This document shows, piece after piece, positions 2,083-34,291 of a stretch of 44,504 bases of DNA. The translations under genes were made by a program, and so were the position numbers. How positions within the stretch are numbered: position 1 is the first letter of the stretch; every line of letters begins with the position of its first letter. Under the pieces are notes generated by a model. The model searched no databases. It was given only the letters and a program-made list of their open reading frames with translations, and had not been told where the DNA came from. Source of the DNA: a phage; sequence record PZ386946.1; one strand, 5' to 3'.

Positions 2083-3336
2083 ATGGTTAAGACAGACAGC
2101 TACGCCAATATCTTTCTAGGCGGTAGTGATGGTAGTGAGATTTACGGAAGTTTACAGAATCAGGATCCTACAATCCTGTCTTCTCTTTATGCGAATAATG
2201 CACTGGTGCGTAGAATTATCGATACAATCCCGGAAACAGCATTAGCGGCAGGATTCTACATTGATGGTATTGATGATGAGCCTGCATTCTGGTCGCGCTG
2301 GGATGATTTTGAGATGACTCGGAATATTAACGACGCCTGGTCGTGGGCGAGATTATTCGGTGGTTCTGCCATTGTAGCTATCGTTAAGGACAATAGGGCG
2401 CTAACGAGTCCGGTAAGAGAAGGTGCAGAACTTGAAACTGTCCGTGTTTACGACCGCACGCAAGTAAAAGTACAAACTCGCGAGGAGAACCCACGCAACG
2501 CGCGATTTGGTAAGCCGCTAACCTATCGTATCACCACAAACGAAAGCGATATGTTCTACGATGTGCACTACAGCCGCATTCACATCATTGACGGAGAGCG
2601 AATTCCTAACGTAATGCGTAGGCAGAATGATGGCTGGGGCCGCAGCGTTCTATCAAGTGACATTCTTGACTCAATTAAGGATTACACCAACTGCGAACGA
2701 CTGGCTACGCAGTTACTGAAGCGCAAGCAGCAAGCAGTGTGGAAGGCGAAAGGTCTGGCTGAGTTATGTGATGATAGCGAAGGATTTGGTGCCGCTAGAT
2801 TACGACTTGCACAGGTTGATAACAATAGCGGCGTGGGTCAGGCGATTGGTATTGACGCAGAATCTGAAGAATACAGTGTTCTTAACTCTGATATTGGTGG
2901 TATTGATGCGTTTCTGGATAAGAAGTTTGACAGAATCGTCGCACTGAGCGGTATTCATGAAATCATCCTGAAGAACAAGAACGTCGGCGGCGTATCCTCA
3001 AGCCAGAATACAGCACTAGAGACATTTCACAAGCTGGTTGACCGCAAGCGCAACTCTGAGTTGCTTCCTATTCTTGAGTTCTTAATACCGTTCATTGTTA
3101 ACGTTGACGAATGGTCAGTTGAGTTTAATCCTCTGGCACAGGAATCAAGCAAGGACAAAGCGGAGATTCTGGAGAAGAACGTAAGCAGCATTGCTACACT
3201 AATTGCATCTGGCGCTATGGATACTAACGAGGCACGTGATACACTGCGAACTATCGCACCAGAGATTAAGATTGGTGATGGTGATATTGAATCTCAACAA
3301 CAAGAACCAGTAGAGGAGGCTGTAATTAATGAGTAA
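2083..3336 (+). CDS. portal protein (putative)
   Basis: about 417 aa ORF immediately after terminase; track start 2071 is TTG, ATG 2083 has GGAG 6 nt upstream; assignment by position and size. Confidence 0.65.
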   Translation: MVKTDSYANIFLGGSDGSEIYGSLQNQDPTILSSLYANNALVRRIIDTIPETALAAGFYIDGIDDEPAFWSRWDDFEMTRNINDAWSWARLFGGSAIVAIVKDNRALTSPVREGAELETVRVYDRTQVKVQTREENPRNARFGKPLTYRITTNESDMFYDVHYSRIHIIDGERIPNVMRRQNDGWGRSVLSSDILDSIKDYTNCERLATQLLKRKQQAVWKAKGLAELCDDSEGFGAARLRLAQVDNNSGVGQAIGIDAESEEYSVLNSDIGGIDAFLDKKFDRIVALSGIHEIILKNKNVGGVSSSQNTALETFHKLVDRKRNSELLPILEFLIPFIVNVDEWSVEFNPLAQESSKDKAEILEKNVSSIATLIASGAMDTNEARDTLRTIAPEIKIGDGDIESQQQEPVEEAVINE

Positions 3337-18681: not shown

Positions 18682-18990
18682 ATGGCTGAGTATGGAATTG
18701 CAACATATGATGCAAATGGTAATTACAATAACTATGGGATTAAGCCTGTTAGTGTTGTTGGTTTTGATTTTCTTTCAGCTGGCAACAATAGCTACTCATT
18801 TAGCTATAATATCCCAGTTGGTACAAAGGTTGGATTCACCATAAGTCTTGATGATGGGGCGATATCTGGACCAGCAAGGAGAATAGTGGCAAGTGGGAAC
18901 ACAATAACGATAACACCAACATCAACACCAGGACCTGGTGTTTACCCATCATCAAATTGCTACCTCATAGCTTATCTGGAGAATCAATAA
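18682..18990 (+). CDS. hypothetical tail-associated protein
   Basis: ATG 18682 with GGAG RBS (track start TTG 18670); N-terminus MAEYGIATYDANGN shared with next ORF. Confidence 0.5.
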   Translation: MAEYGIATYDANGNYNNYGIKPVSVVGFDFLSAGNNSYSFSYNIPVGTKVGFTISLDDGAISGPARRIVASGNTITITPTSTPGPGVYPSSNCYLIAYLENQ

Positions 18991-19682
18991 TGGCTGATTA
19001 CGGAGCTTTTATAGATGTAAATGGAAATCCATTCATAACGCCACTATCAACACCATTCGCACTTTACTCAAAAGGAACAATCGCATCAGGTAATGTTAAC
19101 AACACCCAGTATGCTGATAGATATGTTGACATTCCTCTTAATGTTCCAGTGATAGCTTTTTGCAAAACGACAAACACAAACAATGGTACAGCTTTGTCAG
19201 CATTCACATTTAGGGAGGGATCCAACATTGGAAAGATCTACTTTCAGGGTGTTAATCCAGCAAATCAGGCGTTTGTTATGACGTACTACATATTTGCGAT
19301 ATTCCCACAGACTCTACCTGATTGGGGTATGGCTATATGGGATGCGCAGGGTAGATTGATACTTACAAATGAAACAAAGGTTCTTAGCGACCTAGCAACA
19401 ATTGGCACGCCAGGTTATCAATCTGGTGGTTTAAATATAGACGTAACATTGCAAGGAAGTTGGGCTGTGGTTCCAACAACCCTGGGGAATAGTCAGATAC
19501 AAATAGGAACGCTACCAACTGGTCAGCCAGTTATAACAAATGCGACAGCTGGAACATCCTGCAGGTACAACGGAGTGCAGACAAGAATAAACGCGCAGTC
19601 AACCCTTGGCTCTGGAAATGTGTTAAGCACAACAAATAACGGAAATGTAATAACAGCAATTAACACATCAGCATACGACTAA
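18990..19682 (+). CDS. hypothetical tail fibre-like protein
   Basis: ATG 18990 overlaps upstream stop; N-terminus MADYGAFIDVNGN paralogous to previous ORF; Thr/Asn/Gly-rich. Confidence 0.5.
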   Translation: MADYGAFIDVNGNPFITPLSTPFALYSKGTIASGNVNNTQYADRYVDIPLNVPVIAFCKTTNTNNGTALSAFTFREGSNIGKIYFQGVNPANQAFVMTYYIFAIFPQTLPDWGMAIWDAQGRLILTNETKVLSDLATIGTPGYQSGGLNIDVTLQGSWAVVPTTLGNSQIQIGTLPTGQPVITNATAGTSCRYNGVQTRINAQSTLGSGNVLSTTNNGNVITAINTSAYD

Positions 19683-19683
19683 G

Positions 19684-19707
19684 CCCCTTTCGGGGCTTTT
19701 CTTTTAC
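19684..19707. terminator. bidirectional hairpin terminator between convergent tail and cor-like genes
   Basis: hairpin GCCCC-TTTCG-GGGC flanked by A-rich upstream and T-rich downstream sequence. Confidence 0.55.
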
Positions 19708-19925
19708 ATCGAGCAATCGTGAGACTTAAAGTTATTCTCTGACACGTAGTGGAATGAGAAGGGGTATCCAGCACGTAATAGCATCTCCTCACCGCGCATC
19801 TGGGAGCCAAAAACGTAAACCGAGTACTCTGAGCCACCTGATTCATAAATCGCCGTACAAGTGCGCTCTGGCATCGTAGAGCAACCACTCAGGAGTAATG
19901 CTGCAATTGCGAAAGTCTTTTTCAT
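19704..19925 (-). CDS. cor: Cor-like superinfection exclusion lipoprotein (putative)
   Basis: 73 aa; signal peptide plus lipobox LLSGC; small lipoprotein encoded convergent to the tail-tip genes as Cor in T1/phi80-like phages; RBS AAGGTGG before MKKTF start. Confidence 0.55.
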   Translation of the reverse strand: MKKTFAIAALLLSGCSTMPERTCTAIYESGGSEYSVYVFGSQMRGEEMLLRAGYPFSFHYVSENNFKSHDCSM

Positions 19926-19935
19926 CTTACCCACC

Positions 19936-20040
19936 TTAGAAACCGTTAAAATTCGAAGCCAGCAGCAGAACCCACACGAAGAAACCAGTTACAGCAGCGC
20001 CAGCGACCAGAGCGATTGAGTTGTTGATTAAGTTAGTCAT
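19936..20040 (-). CDS. small hydrophobic peptide (34 aa)
   Basis: not in ORF track (<60 aa); MTNLINNSIALVAGAAVTGFFVWVLLLASNFNGF, single predicted TM helix; downstream of minus-strand bipartite motif, stop abuts Cor-like start. Confidence 0.3.
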   Translation of the reverse strand: MTNLINNSIALVAGAAVTGFFVWVLLLASNFNGF

Positions 20041-20080
20041 TTTGTATCCCTTATTAAGTATGTTTCGTTTCGATGGAGTA

Positions 20081-20127
20081 ACTATAGCAAAGGCCGCTGC
20101 GGGAGTCTTTAGCAATTCGTGCTATTT
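20081..20127 (-). promoter_or_regulatory. bipartite motif copy, minus orientation
   Basis: reverse complement of AATAGCACGAATTGCTAAAG...TATAGTTACTCCATCGAAACGAAAC; precedes 34-aa ORF and Cor-like gene. Confidence 0.5.
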
Positions 20128-20203
20128 GATATACGCGTAACTGATGTAACTCGATGTATACAATCTCATCAGCGGAAAATGATATACGCACTGTTACGCC
20201 AGT

Positions 20204-20291
20204 TTACGCATTGGTTACATTAAAATATCTATATATATCAACCTTTTACTCTTATTATTATTATTATATATATTGCTGTGTATATCATGTA
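20204..20291. repeat. AT-rich repeat element, copy A (contains (TTA)5 microsatellite)
   Basis: about 88 bp closely matching 39031..39117 (TTACGCA.TGGTTACA...ATATCTATATATA...(TTA)n...TATAT...GTGTATAT.ATGTA). Confidence 0.7.
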
Positions 20292-20410
20292 ACTACTTCT
20301 ATAGAGTGTTCCGGTTATAATTTTAATATCATGTGGATTTATACAGTATTGCGCGGCAGCTACACCAATGCACCCTCCGCAATAAATGATATACACGATA
20401 TACACACTAT

Positions 20411-20425
20411 TTACATTGAGCTATA
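20411..20425. repeat. short direct repeat TTACATTGAGCTATA, copy A
   Basis: identical 15-mer at 39256..39270, at similar distance downstream of the AT-rich element in both hubs. Confidence 0.6.
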
Positions 20426-20589
20426 GCTGGTATGAGATGCTAAAAAACGTAACAAGTGCCAATGTCCACACGTAATTACAATGATTCACGCGTAAACTTG
20501 AATCAACGATTGGCAAAACCAATTGGACTGGCTACGGTACCGAATATATAGTTAACCCATCGAAAGCAAACAACCAGAGAGATACAGAA

Positions 20590-33699: not shown

Positions 33700-33726
33700 A
33701 GATAATAGTAAAAACTGGGTTATCAT
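33682..33726 (+). promoter_or_regulatory. bipartite motif copy
   Basis: motif lies inside the 3' end of kinase paralog 1 coding frame; TATCATTAACACATCGAAACGA downstream. Confidence 0.45.
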
Positions 33727-33767: not shown

Positions 33768-33944
33768 ATGACTAAAATGATTTACTGCACAAAGAACAAC
33801 TCCAAGACGCTTCCATTTACAGTTAACCAGCCGTACAATGCAGAGTATCAGGGTGACGGATATTACAAGATTTACGGAGACGATATGACGTGGATTTTAG
33901 CACCGATTGATGGTTCGCTGGTTGAATTTATTATCGCAGACTAG
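33768..33944 (+). CDS. hypothetical small protein
   Basis: ATG 33768 (track start 33693 lies in motif); followed by strong terminator 33971..33998. Confidence 0.4.
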   Translation: MTKMIYCTKNNSKTLPFTVNQPYNAEYQGDGYYKIYGDDMTWILAPIDGSLVEFIIAD

Positions 33945-34075: not shown

Positions 34076-34291
34076 ATGAGGGAAGTAATCAACGCCGCTA
34101 CGGCGTCAACTGGAGGGGCAGCGGTAACTGGCGCGGCAACTGGTCAAATGACTATAGCAATAATCAGCCTTATCGCTCTAATCATTTTTGGTGCGTGGGG
34201 AGCTTACTGGAAGTTTAAAGATAGCCAGGCTATTCGGCGAGCGCTTGAGTCTGGCGACCTAAAAACAGCAATCAATATAAGGAGCAAATAA
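34076..34291 (+). CDS. holin (pinholin-like, putative)
   Basis: 72 aa from ATG 34076 (GGAGG RBS); weakly hydrophobic Gly/Ala-rich segment followed by strong TM helix IAIISLIALIIFGAWGAYW and charged C-terminus; immediately upstream of SAR endolysin. Confidence 0.55.
   Translation: MREVINAATASTGGAAVTGAATGQMTIAIISLIALIIFGAWGAYWKFKDSQAIRRALESGDLKTAINIRSK

What the first reader, a model, noticed from the sequence alone, without database searches (positions are those of the whole stretch)
19704..20040. Cor-like lipoprotein plus 34-aa membrane peptide convergent with the tail-tip genes
A 73-aa lipoprotein with a classic lipobox lies immediately downstream of and opposite to the J-like gene. That is the position where Cor-type superinfection-exclusion lipoproteins sit in T1/phi80-like phages. 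It is co-transcribed with a previously uncalled 34-aa single-TM peptide from a minus-strand motif copy. The small peptide could be a partner of or a second exclusion factor alongside the lipoprotein.
Basis: partly seen in the sequence, partly recalled or inferred. Interest (0 to 1): 0.45.

Follow-up and report, generated by a model that had tools for sequence, protein, structure and literature searches.

The report
Cor exclusion lipoprotein plus small membrane peptide
This is the well-known Cor "keep other phages out" lipoprotein gene of a T1-like phage. It is preceded in the same operon by a real, conserved 34-residue membrane peptide of unknown function that is widespread in T1-like phages and is not a dedicated Cor partner.

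Summary

**The lipoprotein is a true Cor.**
- It scores 50.2 bits against a 31-bit cutoff on the NCBIfam equivalog NF047972, and E=1.6e-28 on PHROG_1119.
- It is 79% identical to T1 Cor.
- It has an LSG|C lipobox.
- It sits beside the FhuA-type receptor-binding cassette, whose two proteins are 72-75% identical to T1 gp31/gp32.
- Its AF2 model superposes best on T5 Llp bound to FhuA.
- This part is already known biology.

**The 34-aa ORF is a real gene.**
- It has a good SD and lies downstream of a copy of a 9-copy promoter/leader motif.
- pN/pS is 0.42 in frame, against about 1.0-1.4 in three of the other five frames and 0.49 in the mirror antisense frame.
- It belongs to a family of 30-44-aa single-pass peptides confined to Drexlerviridae, with an invariant ...W-V-x-x-L-A-[SG]-N-F-x-G-F C-terminus.

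**The peptide is not Cor-specific.**
- T1 has cor without it.
- SRT8 has both genes, unlinked.
- Five genera place it at the head of the lysis operon.
- Webervirus and PHB17 place it before dam.
- IME253 pairs it with a FepA-type lipoprotein.

Its function is unknown. A weak resemblance to the pinholin N-terminus (hhalign P about 5e-4) is only a lead. Interest is low to moderate.

The parts
19704..19925 (-). cor: 73-aa prelipoprotein (signal peptide MKKTFAIAALLLSG, lipidated Cys15, Ser at +2, conserved Cys23 and Cys71). Cor superinfection-exclusion lipoprotein.
   Evidence: NCBIfam NF047972 scores 50.2 bits against a 31-bit cutoff. PHROG_1119 gives E=1.6e-28. It is 78.7% identical to T1 Cor and 93% to JulesPiccard Cor. 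The AF2 model has pLDDT 83 and its best superposition is 8a60_B, Llp.
19926..19938 (-). Intercistronic junction: the peptide's stop codon TAA (19936-19938) overlaps the cor Shine-Dalgarno region TAAGGTGGGTAAG.
   Evidence: Read directly from the sequence. Relatives show the same tight coupling, 0-12 nt between the cistrons.
19936..20040 (-). 34-aa single-pass membrane peptide MTNLINNSIALVAGAAVTGFFVWVLLLASNFNGF, a member of a Drexlerviridae-restricted small-protein family.
   Evidence: There are 46 homologous clusters, none with a Pfam domain. An exhaustive HMM search returned 24 representatives, all 30-51 aa. Alignment A4 gives the invariant positions G14, L27, A28, F31 and G33. pN/pS is 0.42 in frame, about 1.0-1.4 in three other frames and 0.49 in the mirror antisense frame.
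20047..20052 (-). Shine-Dalgarno sequence (AAGGGA) of the peptide gene, 6 nt before the ATG.
   Evidence: Read from the sequence. The SD is conserved in all homologues.
20068..20126 (-). Promoter/leader motif copy. It consists of the palindrome-containing block AATAGCACGAATTGCTAAAG (20107-20126), a 20-nt spacer, then TATAGTTACTCCATCGAAA (20068-20086).
   Evidence: The pattern occurs 9 times in the window against 0.03 expected, and the aligned copies are. It is conserved upstream of the peptide gene in the relatives examined (clearest in the cor-context phages and SRT8, more divergent in Ec_L1 and PHB17) and upstream of rtp45 in Rtp. Promoter function is inferred, not shown.
19681..19698 (.). 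GC-rich hairpin between the convergent tail-tip genes and cor. It is a good intrinsic terminator for the plus strand (T-run follows) and weaker for the cor transcript (no U-tract).
18682..19682 (+). FhuA-type receptor-recognition cassette, two genes (18682-18990 and 18990-19682), convergent with cor.
   Evidence: PHROG_557 and PHROG_425 match. The proteins are 75% and 72% identical to T1 gp32 and gp31. This cassette is linked to the FhuA receptor in PMC8594841 and PMC13164509.

Best explanation
The locus is the exclusion half of the FhuA-type host-recognition module of a T1-like (Drexlerviridae, Braunvirinae-like) phage.

**Transcript (inferred).** A motif-type promoter/leader at 20068-20126(-) drives a bicistronic mRNA.

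**Second cistron, cor.** It encodes a prelipoprotein. The following steps are inferred from the lipobox, Ser at +2, family membership and the Llp precedent. The protein is exported, lipidated at Cys15 and sorted by Lol to the inner leaflet of the outer membrane. There it binds the periplasmic side of FhuA and changes the receptor so that the phage's own receptor-binding proteins, and those of other FhuA-dependent phages, no longer bind. This prevents superinfection and the loss of progeny on cell debris.

**First cistron, the peptide.** It encodes a genuine 34-residue single-pass inner-membrane peptide. Its probable topology is N-in/C-out, with the invariant aromatic C-terminal tail NF(N/K)GF at the periplasmic face. 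The peptide belongs to a family found across Drexlerviridae that is always the first cistron after a copy of the same promoter/leader and is tightly coupled to whatever gene follows. That gene can be cor, a FepA-type lipoprotein, the SH3/holin lysis genes, or dam.

**Conclusion.** The peptide is therefore an independent accessory membrane factor that merely shares the operon with cor in this lineage. It is not a component of the Cor mechanism. Its molecular target is unknown. The two leading guesses are modulation of the T1-type pinholin and a receptor-independent block at the inner membrane.
For: **Cor identity.**
- It passes the curated equivalog NF047972, 50.2 bits against 31, and PHROG_1119 at E=1.6e-28.
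- It is 78.7% identical to T1 Cor and 34-36% to phi80, N15 and HK022 Cor.
- The lipobox and the conserved Cys23/Cys71 pair are present.
- The AF2 model (pLDDT 83) has its best TM-score and rmsd match with 8a60_B, T5 Llp in complex with FhuA: TMt 0.62, 2.9 A over 59 columns.
- The neighbouring genes are T1 gp32/gp31 homologues at 75% and 72% identity. This cassette correlates with FhuA use (PMC8594841; PMC13164509).
- Related exclusion lipoproteins form complexes with their receptors without any small partner: Llp-FhuA (PDB 8A60) and Rtp45-LptDE (bioRxiv 10.1101/2025.07.07.663478).

**The peptide is a real gene.**
- The SD is conserved.
- Invariant residues hold across 31-43 sequences.
- Serine is kept through a TCG-to-AGT codon change in RobRod40.
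- pN/pS is 0.42 in frame, about 1.0-1.4 in three of the other five frames and 0.49 in the mirror antisense frame.
- The family is found only on phage-size contigs.

**The peptide is independent of Cor.**
- T1 lacks it.
- In SRT8, cor and the peptide lie in different parts of the record.
- The lysis-operon context is seen in SRT8, BrunoManser, IME347, Ec_L1, AAS23 and two metagenomic contigs.
- The dam context is seen in PHB17 and Klebsiella phage VAC2, with 127 Klebsiella-phage records in all.
- IME253, whose receptor is FepA according to PMC8594841, pairs a peptide 30/34 identical to that of the FhuA-type phage Sd1 with a different lipoprotein.
Against: - No experiment here shows exclusion, lipidation, membrane insertion or the transcript itself.
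- The motif has not been shown to be a promoter. Its conserved upstream block is 23 nt from TATAGT, which is not a canonical -35 spacing.
- The hairpin after cor lacks a U-tract in the cor direction.
- Three subfamilies keep the peptide directly upstream of an exclusion lipoprotein. That arrangement could reflect a functional link that the distribution argument does not rule out.
- The peptide's topology and partner are inferred only.
Confidence: 0.78

Rival explanations
1. The peptide is a free-standing, membrane-locked relative of the first transmembrane segment of the T1-type pinholin. It acts in trans on the holin to tune lysis timing, like an antiholin. In this lineage its gene has been moved from the lysis operon to the cor operon.
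For: - The N-terminal 19 residues are 53% identical to the window's own holin N-terminus (MTNLINNSIALVAGAAVTG against MREVINAATASTGGAAVTG).
- hhalign gives P=4.3e-4 and 5.5e-4, probability 30-34%.
- Composition-preserving shuffles give p=0.0005-0.02 for eight holins, four of them near-identical to one another.
- The holin N-terminus is the best non-self hit of the peptide HMM among 972 six-frame segments of the window (8.1 bits). It is also the best non-self hit in SRT8 and L016.
- In at least five genera the peptide is the first cistron of the operon peptide-DUF7244(SH3)-holin-endolysin-spanin.
- The holin here has no dual-start antiholin (54 sequence).
- In pinholin S21 the first TMD times activation (bioRxiv 10.1101/2021.04.20.440580).
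- A 1-TMD lysis regulator encoded away from the lysis cassette is reported in mycobacteriophage D29 (abstract of bioRxiv 10.64898/2026.08.27.747656, seen; the paper itself was not read).
Against: - Scores are low (3-8 bits) and comparable to generic signal-peptide hits in Ec_L1 and L017.
- The similarity covers only about 20 Gly/Ala/Thr-rich residues.
- The family's most conserved part, W-V-x-x-L-A-[SG]-N-F-x-G-F, has no counterpart in the holin.
- T1 and Rtp manage without the peptide.
- In the window and in Webervirus the gene is not in the lysis operon.
Confidence: 0.2
2. The peptide is a second, receptor-independent superinfection-exclusion factor. It sits in the inner membrane and blocks genome entry by T1-like phages, complementing Cor at the outer membrane.
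For: - It is co-transcribed with the exclusion lipoprotein in Braunvirinae, Rogunavirinae and Nouzillyvirus.
- It is retained when the receptor module is FhuA-type or FepA-type.
- Small inner-membrane exclusion proteins exist in other phages, such as T4 Imm, P22 SieA and HK97 gp15 (from my own knowledge, not tested here).
- Independence from receptor type fits a step common to all T1-like phages.
Against: - There is no similarity to any known exclusion protein in PHROGs, Pfam or NCBIfam.
- Most family members are not next to exclusion genes.
- The peptide is absent from T1 and Rtp.
Confidence: 0.15
3. The peptide is an obligate partner of Cor: an anchor, chaperone or co-factor needed for FhuA blockade.
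For: - The two genes are adjacent and 10 nt apart in the window.
- The same arrangement is seen in at least 9 related phages.
Against: - T1 Cor is 79% identical, yet T1 has no peptide.
- Of 241 phage records with a Cor homologue, only about 14 have the peptide beside it.
- The genes are unlinked in SRT8.
- 127 Klebsiella-phage records carry the peptide, whereas only 2 of the 241 cor-positive records are Klebsiella phages.
- Peptide sequence does not co-vary with lipoprotein type.
- Llp and Rtp45 bind their receptors alone (PDB 8A60; 10.1101/2025.07.07.663478).
Confidence: 0.04
4. The 34-codon ORF is only a translated leader (uORF) whose role is to deliver ribosomes to the downstream gene. The peptide itself has no function.
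For: - It is always the promoter-proximal cistron.
- Its stop codon lies 0-12 nt from the next start.
- In tightly coupled versions the last codons (AA[AC]-GG[ATG]-TTC) supply the SD for the next gene.
Against: - Amino-acid conservation extends across the whole C-terminal half (G14, T18, W23, V24, L27, A28, N30, F31, G33, F34), far from any SD.
- pN/pS is 0.42.
- The same peptide is kept in front of four unrelated downstream genes.
- The window has a separate strong SD for cor after the stop codon.
Confidence: 0.05

Closest known systems
Cor of phage T1 (also phi80, N15, HK022): phage exclusion lipoprotein Cor, NCBIfam NF047972 / PHROG_1119
   Same: - 78.7% identity to T1 Cor, with the same length, lipobox and conserved Cys pair.
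- The same position convergent with the two FhuA-cassette genes downstream of the J-like tail-tip gene.
- It passes the curated HMMs.
   Different: - The window's cor is the second cistron behind a 34-aa peptide gene, whereas T1's cor stands alone after about 260 bp of intergenic DNA.
- In phi80, N15 and HK022, identity is only 34-36%, and there cor lies on the plus strand of the record; its orientation relative to the tail genes was not checked.
Llp of phage T5 (PDB 8A60, FhuA-Llp complex)
   Same: - Both are small outer-membrane lipoproteins with a disulfide-capable Cys pair, encoded next to receptor-binding genes.
- Llp is the best structural superposition of the Cor model: TMt 0.62, rmsd 2.9 A.
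- Both are presumed to block FhuA from the periplasmic side (PMC13164509).
   Different: - There is no significant sequence similarity: phmmer E=0.18, mostly over the signal peptide.
- The Foldseek E-value is only 0.098.
- It works like Llp but is not a sequence-family member.
Rtp45 of phage Rtp (LptDE-directed exclusion lipoprotein)
   Same: - It occupies the same genomic slot and uses the same promoter/leader.
- It shares its first 9 codons (MTNLI..SI) with the window's peptide gene.
- It plays the same role in the receptor module.
   Different: - It belongs to a different protein family (PHROG_4281) and targets a different receptor, LptD.
- Its receptor-binding gene lies on the same strand.
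- There is no separate small peptide. The module junction lies inside the peptide ORF's 5' end.
bas03_0032 (JulesPiccard), bas12_0041 (BrunoManser) and similar 'hypothetical proteins' of Drexlerviridae
   Same: These are the same family as the window's peptide (53-94% identity). Length, single TM segment and the invariant C-terminal LA[SG]NFxGF are shared.
   Different: - None has a described function.
- Many are annotated with spurious N-terminal extensions, mislabelled as lipoproteins, or not annotated at all.
- The genomic context differs by genus.
Pinholin/antiholin pairs (phage 21 S21 68/71)
   Same: - The peptide's N-terminal half resembles the Gly/Ala/Thr-rich first TMD of the T1-type pinholin.
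- The peptide heads the lysis operon in several genera.
   Different: - It is a separate gene, not a dual-start product.
- Its second half is strongly hydrophobic, so it is unlikely to leave the membrane.
- The homology is not established.

Membership tests
Cor (phage exclusion lipoprotein; NCBIfam NF047972, PHROG_1119) | Match to the curated family HMM above its cut-off | tested here: met
   NF047972 scores 50.2 bits against a 31-bit cutoff, E=1.9e-13. PHROG_1119 gives E=1.6e-28 over residues 1-72.
Cor (phage exclusion lipoprotein; NCBIfam NF047972, PHROG_1119) | Lipoprotein signal peptide with lipobox, and a non-Asp residue at +2 (outer-membrane sorting) | tested here: met
   The sequence begins MKKTFAIAALLLSG|CS. 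G14 and C15 are invariant in 22 homologues. Lipidation and sorting are inferred, not shown.
Cor (phage exclusion lipoprotein; NCBIfam NF047972, PHROG_1119) | Encoded in the host-specificity region, next to FhuA-type receptor-binding genes | tested here: met
   It is convergent with the T1 gp32/gp31 homologues (75% and 72% identity) that lie downstream of the J-like gene.
Cor (phage exclusion lipoprotein; NCBIfam NF047972, PHROG_1119) | Excludes FhuA-dependent phages when expressed | not testable with these tools
   This requires plating and adsorption assays.
T5 Llp family | Significant sequence similarity to Llp | tested here: not met
   phmmer against PDB finds 8a60_B as the only hit, at E=0.18, with the alignment mostly over the signal peptide.
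T5 Llp family | Llp-like fold of the mature domain | tested here: inconclusive
   8a60_B gives the highest TM-score (TMq 0.54, TMt 0.62) and the lowest rmsd (2.9 A) among the Foldseek PDB hits. The E-value is 0.098 and Tudor-like barrels score similarly.
Drexlerviridae 30-44-aa membrane peptide family (unnamed; e.g. bas03_0032) | Single hydrophobic segment, with G14, L27, A28, F31 and G33 invariant and an aromatic C-terminal residue. Always the first cistron after the CATCGAAAC-type leader. | tested here: met
   Alignments A2 and A4. The family profile scores 64 bits on the window ORF. Leader and SD are conserved in 17 loci.
Bacterial lipoprotein (annotation given to the peptide in Phleasolo and Sadiya) | Lipobox with Cys | tested here: not met
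   The window peptide and most family members contain no Cys. Where a Cys occurs there is no lipobox context.
Antiholin / pinholin TMD1 | Homology to the holin's first transmembrane domain | tested here: inconclusive
   hhalign gives P=4.3e-4 to 5.5e-4 with probability 30-34%. Shuffle tests give p=0.0005-0.02. The peptide has no hit to Pfam Phage_T1_holin.
Antiholin / pinholin TMD1 | Encoded in the lysis cassette | tested here: not met
   In the window, the lysis operon (motif at 33721, SH3 at 33768-33944, holin at 34076-34291) has no peptide gene. The feature is met in other genera.
Known inner-membrane exclusion proteins (T4 Imm, P22 SieA, HK97 gp15 types) | Sequence-family match | tested here: not met
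   No PHROG, Pfam or NCBIfam hit of that kind. The best PHROG hit is phrog_26959, of unknown function, at E=0.11.

The most novel reading that the evidence does not exclude
The 34-aa peptide is a stand-alone, permanently membrane-embedded descendant of the pinholin's first transmembrane helix. It acts in trans on the T1-type pinholin as a separately encoded antiholin. In Braunvirinae and Rogunavirinae it has been rewired into the superinfection-exclusion operon. Exclusion and the lysis clock would then be expressed together, a siphovirus analogue of the link between exclusion and lysis inhibition in T4.
Probability: 0.12. Interest if true: 0.6.

Novelty: new member of a known kind. Interest (0 to 1): 0.25.

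Why it matters
**Cor.** This part only confirms textbook biology. It allows an in-silico prediction that this phage uses FhuA as its terminal receptor.

**The peptide.** This is the only open item.
- It is a strongly conserved, inconsistently annotated small membrane protein found in more than 150 sequenced T1-like phages of Escherichia, Shigella, Klebsiella, Enterobacter and Pantoea.
- No function has been assigned to it.
- It always sits at the head of a motif-driven operon.

Knowing what it does would fill a gap in a phage family that matters for phage therapy (Klebsiella Webervirus) and for laboratory and fermentation contamination. Candidate roles are lysis timing, inner-membrane exclusion, or host takeover. 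The finding also warns annotators that this ORF's true start is the SD-preceded ATG that gives 31-44 residues.

Tried and rejected
- **Pfam.** No family for either protein, apart from a sub-threshold lipoprotein-signal hit.
- **Rfam.** A scan of the whole window found nothing in the region, only a tRNA at 43593.
- **Peptide as lipoprotein** (annotation in Phleasolo and Sadiya). Rejected because there is no lipobox.
- **Peptide as a relic of the Rtp45 signal peptide.** The first 9 codons are shared at DNA level with rtp45. However, the peptide family is far more widespread and is conserved to its C-terminus. Borrowing in the other direction, or a recombination junction inside the ORF start, is more likely.
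- **A second copy of the peptide in the window.** None found.
- **A peptide upstream of T1 cor.** None on the cor strand. A 34-codon TTG ORF lies on the opposite strand and was judged to be chance.
- **Deep alignments for Cor and the holin.** The word-indexed search returned only close relatives, 22 and 8 hits. The Cor structure therefore rests on a shallow alignment.
- **Force-sensing arrest peptide (SecM/MifM type).** Considered and rejected. A 34-residue chain would still be inside the ribosome tunnel at termination.
- **C-terminal ...GF as a DegS-PDZ or beta-signal mimic.** Considered, but there is no evidence and the motif does not fit well.
Full report
**1. What is there**

The window is a T1-like siphovirus genome of the family Drexlerviridae. 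It is about 87-88% identical at nucleotide level to Braunvirinae phages such as JulesPiccard, IME253 and ZL19.

The flagged interval holds two minus-strand ORFs.
- **cor, 19704-19925.** It encodes a 73-aa prelipoprotein, MKKTFAIAALLLSG|CSTMPERTC...HDCSM.
- **Peptide gene, 19936-20040.** It encodes MTNLINNSIALVAGAAVTGFFVWVLLLASNFNGF.

The peptide's TAA stop overlaps the strong Shine-Dalgarno region of cor (TAAGGTGGGTAAGATG). The two cistrons are 10 nt apart and no terminator lies between them. The peptide has its own SD, AAGGGA, 6 nt upstream of its ATG.

Twenty-seven nucleotides (20041-20067) further upstream lies a copy of a repeated motif.
- The core, TATAGTTACTCCATCGAAA, is at 20068-20086(-).
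- A conserved palindrome-containing block, AATAGCACGAATTGCTAAAG, is at 20107-20126(-).
- The core pattern occurs 9 times in the window against 0.03 expected.
- Every copy sits 13-28 nt before the start codon of an ORF.
- The 34-codon ORF therefore starts exactly where motif-driven genes start.

A GC hairpin at 19681-19698 separates cor from the convergent plus-strand genes. It is a good terminator for the plus strand. For the cor transcript it lacks a U-tract.

Two plus-strand genes, 18682-18990 and 18990-19682, lie between them.

**2. The lipoprotein is Cor**

- It passes NCBI's curated equivalog model for 'phage exclusion lipoprotein Cor': NF047972, 50.2 bits against a 31-bit cutoff.
- It matches PHROG_1119, 'Cor superinfection exclusion protein', at E=1.6e-28 over its full length.
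- By tblastn it is 93% identical to JulesPiccard Cor, 78.7% to T1 Cor, and 34-36% to the Cor proteins of phi80, N15 and HK022. In all, 241 phage records carry a homologue.
- In an alignment of 22 close homologues, the lipobox Gly-Cys and two further cysteines (C23, C71) are invariant.
- Ser at +2 predicts sorting to the outer membrane. This follows from the established Lol rule and was not tested.

The two intervening plus-strand genes are 75% and 72% identical to T1 gp32 and gp31. They fall in PHROG_557 and PHROG_425. This three-gene cassette has been tied to use of FhuA as terminal receptor in the BASEL study (PMC8594841) and again in the KanT1 paper (PMC13164509).

An AlphaFold2 model of the window protein has mean pLDDT 83 and above 90 for the mature domain.
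- Its best superposition in the PDB is chain B of 8A60, T5 Llp bound to FhuA: TM 0.54/0.62 and rmsd 2.9 A over 59 columns.
- The Foldseek E-value is only 0.098, and small Tudor-like barrels score similarly.
- By sequence, Llp is the only PDB hit, but it is not significant (E=0.18).

So the protein is a member of the Cor family. It probably works like Llp, blocking FhuA from the periplasmic side. It is not a member of the Llp sequence family. All of this is established knowledge for T1-like phages.

**3. The 34-aa ORF is a real, conserved gene**

tblastn finds it in 31 phage records at 53-94% identity. Two divergent family members used as queries add 8 and 127 further records, mainly Klebsiella Webervirus.

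A profile search of 5.8 billion proteins finds 46 clusters. All are 31-82 aa, all lie on contigs of at most 53 kb, and none has a Pfam domain or a name other than 'hypothetical'. An exhaustive HMMER search of 1.84 billion cluster representatives finds only 24 representatives, all 30-51 aa. The family is therefore self-contained and unrelated to any larger protein.

Conservation across 31 sequences is as follows.
- Invariant: G14, L27, A28, F31, G33.
- At least 90% conserved: M1, T18, W23, V24, N30, F34.
- Consensus: M-K/T-N/D-(hydrophobic)-G-x-A-V-T-G-F-F-x-W-V-[LI]-x-L-A-[SG]-N-F-[NK]-G-[FW]-COOH.

Codon-level comparison of 15 loci supports selection on the protein.
- pS is 0.59 and pN is 0.25 in the ORF's frame, a ratio of 0.42.
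- Three of the other five frames give ratios of about 1.0-1.4. The antisense frame that shares third codon positions gives 0.49.
- 22 of 24 third codon positions vary, against 13 of 24 second positions.
- One serine is kept through a TCG-to-AGT change in RobRod40.

Every homologue has a good SD and is preceded by the CATCGAAAC-type leader. Longer versions annotated in some records (51, 59 and 76 aa) read through non-conserved upstream sequence. The conserved start is the SD-preceded ATG.

The peptide has one hydrophobic segment of about 20 residues. Most members start MK... and carry more positive charge at the N-terminus. N-in/C-out is therefore the likely topology, with the invariant aromatic tail at the periplasmic face. 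This is inference.

**4. The peptide is not a dedicated Cor partner**

Three kinds of genomic context were found.

- **(i) Promoter motif - peptide - cor.** Seen in the window, JulesPiccard, RobRod40, Phleasolo and relatives, Sd1, Sf12, MM01, Phagiculus, BUCT-XGG-1 and A110b. IME253 and its relatives have the same arrangement but with a different, distantly Cor-like 61-aa lipoprotein and different receptor-binding genes. IME253's receptor is FepA according to PMC8594841.
- **(ii) Promoter motif - peptide - standalone SH3 (DUF7244) - holin - endolysin - spanin.** Seen in SRT8 and BrunoManser (Sertoctavirus), IME347 (Badaguanvirus, receptor YncD), Ec_L1 (Eclunavirus), Pantoea phage AAS23 (Sauletekiovirus) and two metagenomic contigs.
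- **(iii) VRR-NUC endonuclease - peptide - Dam methylase.** Seen in PHB17 (Tempevirinae) and Klebsiella phage VAC2 (Webervirus).

Further points argue against a dedicated partnership.
- T1 has cor with about 260 bp of upstream DNA and no such ORF. No T1 or Rtp record appears among any of the tblastn hits.
- SRT8 has both genes, in different parts of its record.
- The peptide of IME253 (FepA-type) is 30/34 identical to that of Sd1 (FhuA-type), whereas the window's peptide is only 26/34 identical to Sd1's. The peptide follows the phage backbone, not the receptor.
- Related exclusion lipoproteins bind their receptors on their own: Llp-FhuA (PDB 8A60) and Rtp45-LptDE (bioRxiv 10.1101/2025.07.07.663478).

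In all contexts the peptide gene is the first cistron after the motif/leader. Its stop codon lies 0-12 nt from the next start. The dispersed motif copies offer an obvious substrate for moving a promoter-proximal cassette between operons (inference).

In Rtp, the LptD-type module (rtp45-rtp44) replaces the peptide, cor and the two receptor genes. Homology to the window runs through the promoter, leader, ATG and the first 9 codons: Rtp45 starts MTNLIKLSI and the peptide starts MTNLINNSI. The module junction thus lies inside the 5' end of the ORF.

**5. What the peptide might do**

No database assigns a function. One lead emerged: its N-terminal half resembles the N-terminus and first, Gly/Ala/Thr-rich transmembrane segment of the T1-type pinholin of the same phages.

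| Phage | Peptide N-terminus | Holin N-terminus | Identity |
|---|---|---|---|
| Window | MTNLINNSIALVAGAAVTG | MREVINAATASTGGAAVTG | 10/19 |
| SRT8 | MKDFI... | MKDFI... | first 5 residues |

The statistical support is modest.
- Profile-profile comparison gives P=4.3e-4 and 5.5e-4, with probability only 30-34%.
- Composition-preserving shuffles of eight holins, four of them near-identical to one another, give p=0.0005-0.02.
- The holin N-terminus is the best non-self hit of the peptide HMM among 972 six-frame segments of the window, at 8.1 bits and E=0.17.
- It is also the best non-self hit in SRT8 and one metagenomic locus, but not in Ec_L1 or L017.

The lysis-operon context in five genera, and the absence of a dual-start antiholin in this holin gene, make a trans-acting lysis-timing role plausible. 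In pinholin S21 the first TMD times activation (10.1101/2021.04.20.440580).

Against this, the signal is weak. It covers a low-complexity stretch and does not include the family's most conserved C-terminal half. I rate this reading at about 0.2, a receptor-independent inner-membrane exclusion role at about 0.15, and a mere translated leader at about 0.05.

**6. Verdict**

- The Cor interpretation is right and already known.
- The 'partner of Cor' idea is not supported.
- The peptide is a real member of an uncharacterised family of small membrane proteins spread across several Drexlerviridae genera and subfamilies.
- Overall this is a new member of known kinds, with a modest open question attached.

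Noticed in passing
window 1601, 8719, 20068-20086(-), 20547, 21987, 30145, 33721, 38708-38726(-), 42133, each with an upstream block about 20 nt away: A composite motif: AATAGCACGAATTGCTAAAG (containing the perfect palindrome TAGCA-N5-TGCTA), then about 20 nt, then TATAGTTACTCCATCGAAACGA, then 13-28 nt, then a start codon. It occurs 9 times against 0.03 expected and precedes both structural and non-structural genes. The conserved upstream block is 23 nt from TATAGT, too far for a normal -35 element. It may be a factor-binding site plus a -10 element and a conserved 5' leader.
   Followed up: partly
window 20041-20589, especially 20126-20405: The roughly 550-bp divergent intergenic region between the peptide-cor operon and the recombination-gene operon is AT-rich. 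It holds 5 of the window's 9 matches to ATGATATACRC (1.5 expected for the whole window), in both orientations. It is flanked by inverted motif copies (20061-20086 and 20547-20572). It is 88-92% conserved in Rtp-like phages even where the adjacent receptor module differs. The repeats are iteron-like, so the region could be an origin or a regulatory region.
   Followed up: partly
L004 (phage Rtp) 2991-3017(-) against window 20014-20040(-): The LptD-directed exclusion lipoprotein Rtp45 shares its promoter, leader, ATG and first 9 codons with the 34-aa peptide gene. The receptor-module recombination junction therefore lies inside the ORF's 5' end, and Rtp45's signal peptide N-terminus is chimeric.
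   Followed up: partly
window 33768-33944(+) and 34076-34291(+): The lysis region has a standalone SH3-like gene (DUF7244 type, PHROG_4788) driven by a motif copy. A hairpin with a T-run follows it, before the T1-type holin (start MREV at 34076, SD GGAGG). The holin has no dual-start antiholin motif. This matches the SH3-lysis association reported in PMC13164509.
   Followed up: partly
window 43593-43670(+): A tRNA-Arg(TCT) gene, found by Rfam at 58.5 bits and by ARAGORN.
   Followed up: no
L012 (IME253) 2607-2792(+): The lipoprotein paired with the peptide in the FepA-dependent phage IME253 (MKKLIVITAMILAGCSGGERT..., 61 aa) gives only a weak Cor-family hit: PHROG_1119 at E=7e-5. Exclusion lipoproteins for different TonB-dependent receptors may therefore be distant relatives.
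   Followed up: no
public records Sd1, Sf12, MM01, IME253, SRT8, IME347, ZL19 and phiA2-1, and Phleasolo/Sadiya: The peptide gene is unannotated in many deposited genomes. In others it is annotated with spurious N-terminal extensions or labelled 'putative lipoprotein'. In Phagiculus, neither the peptide ORF nor cor is annotated on the correct strand; only opposite-strand ORFs are called over them.
   Followed up: yes
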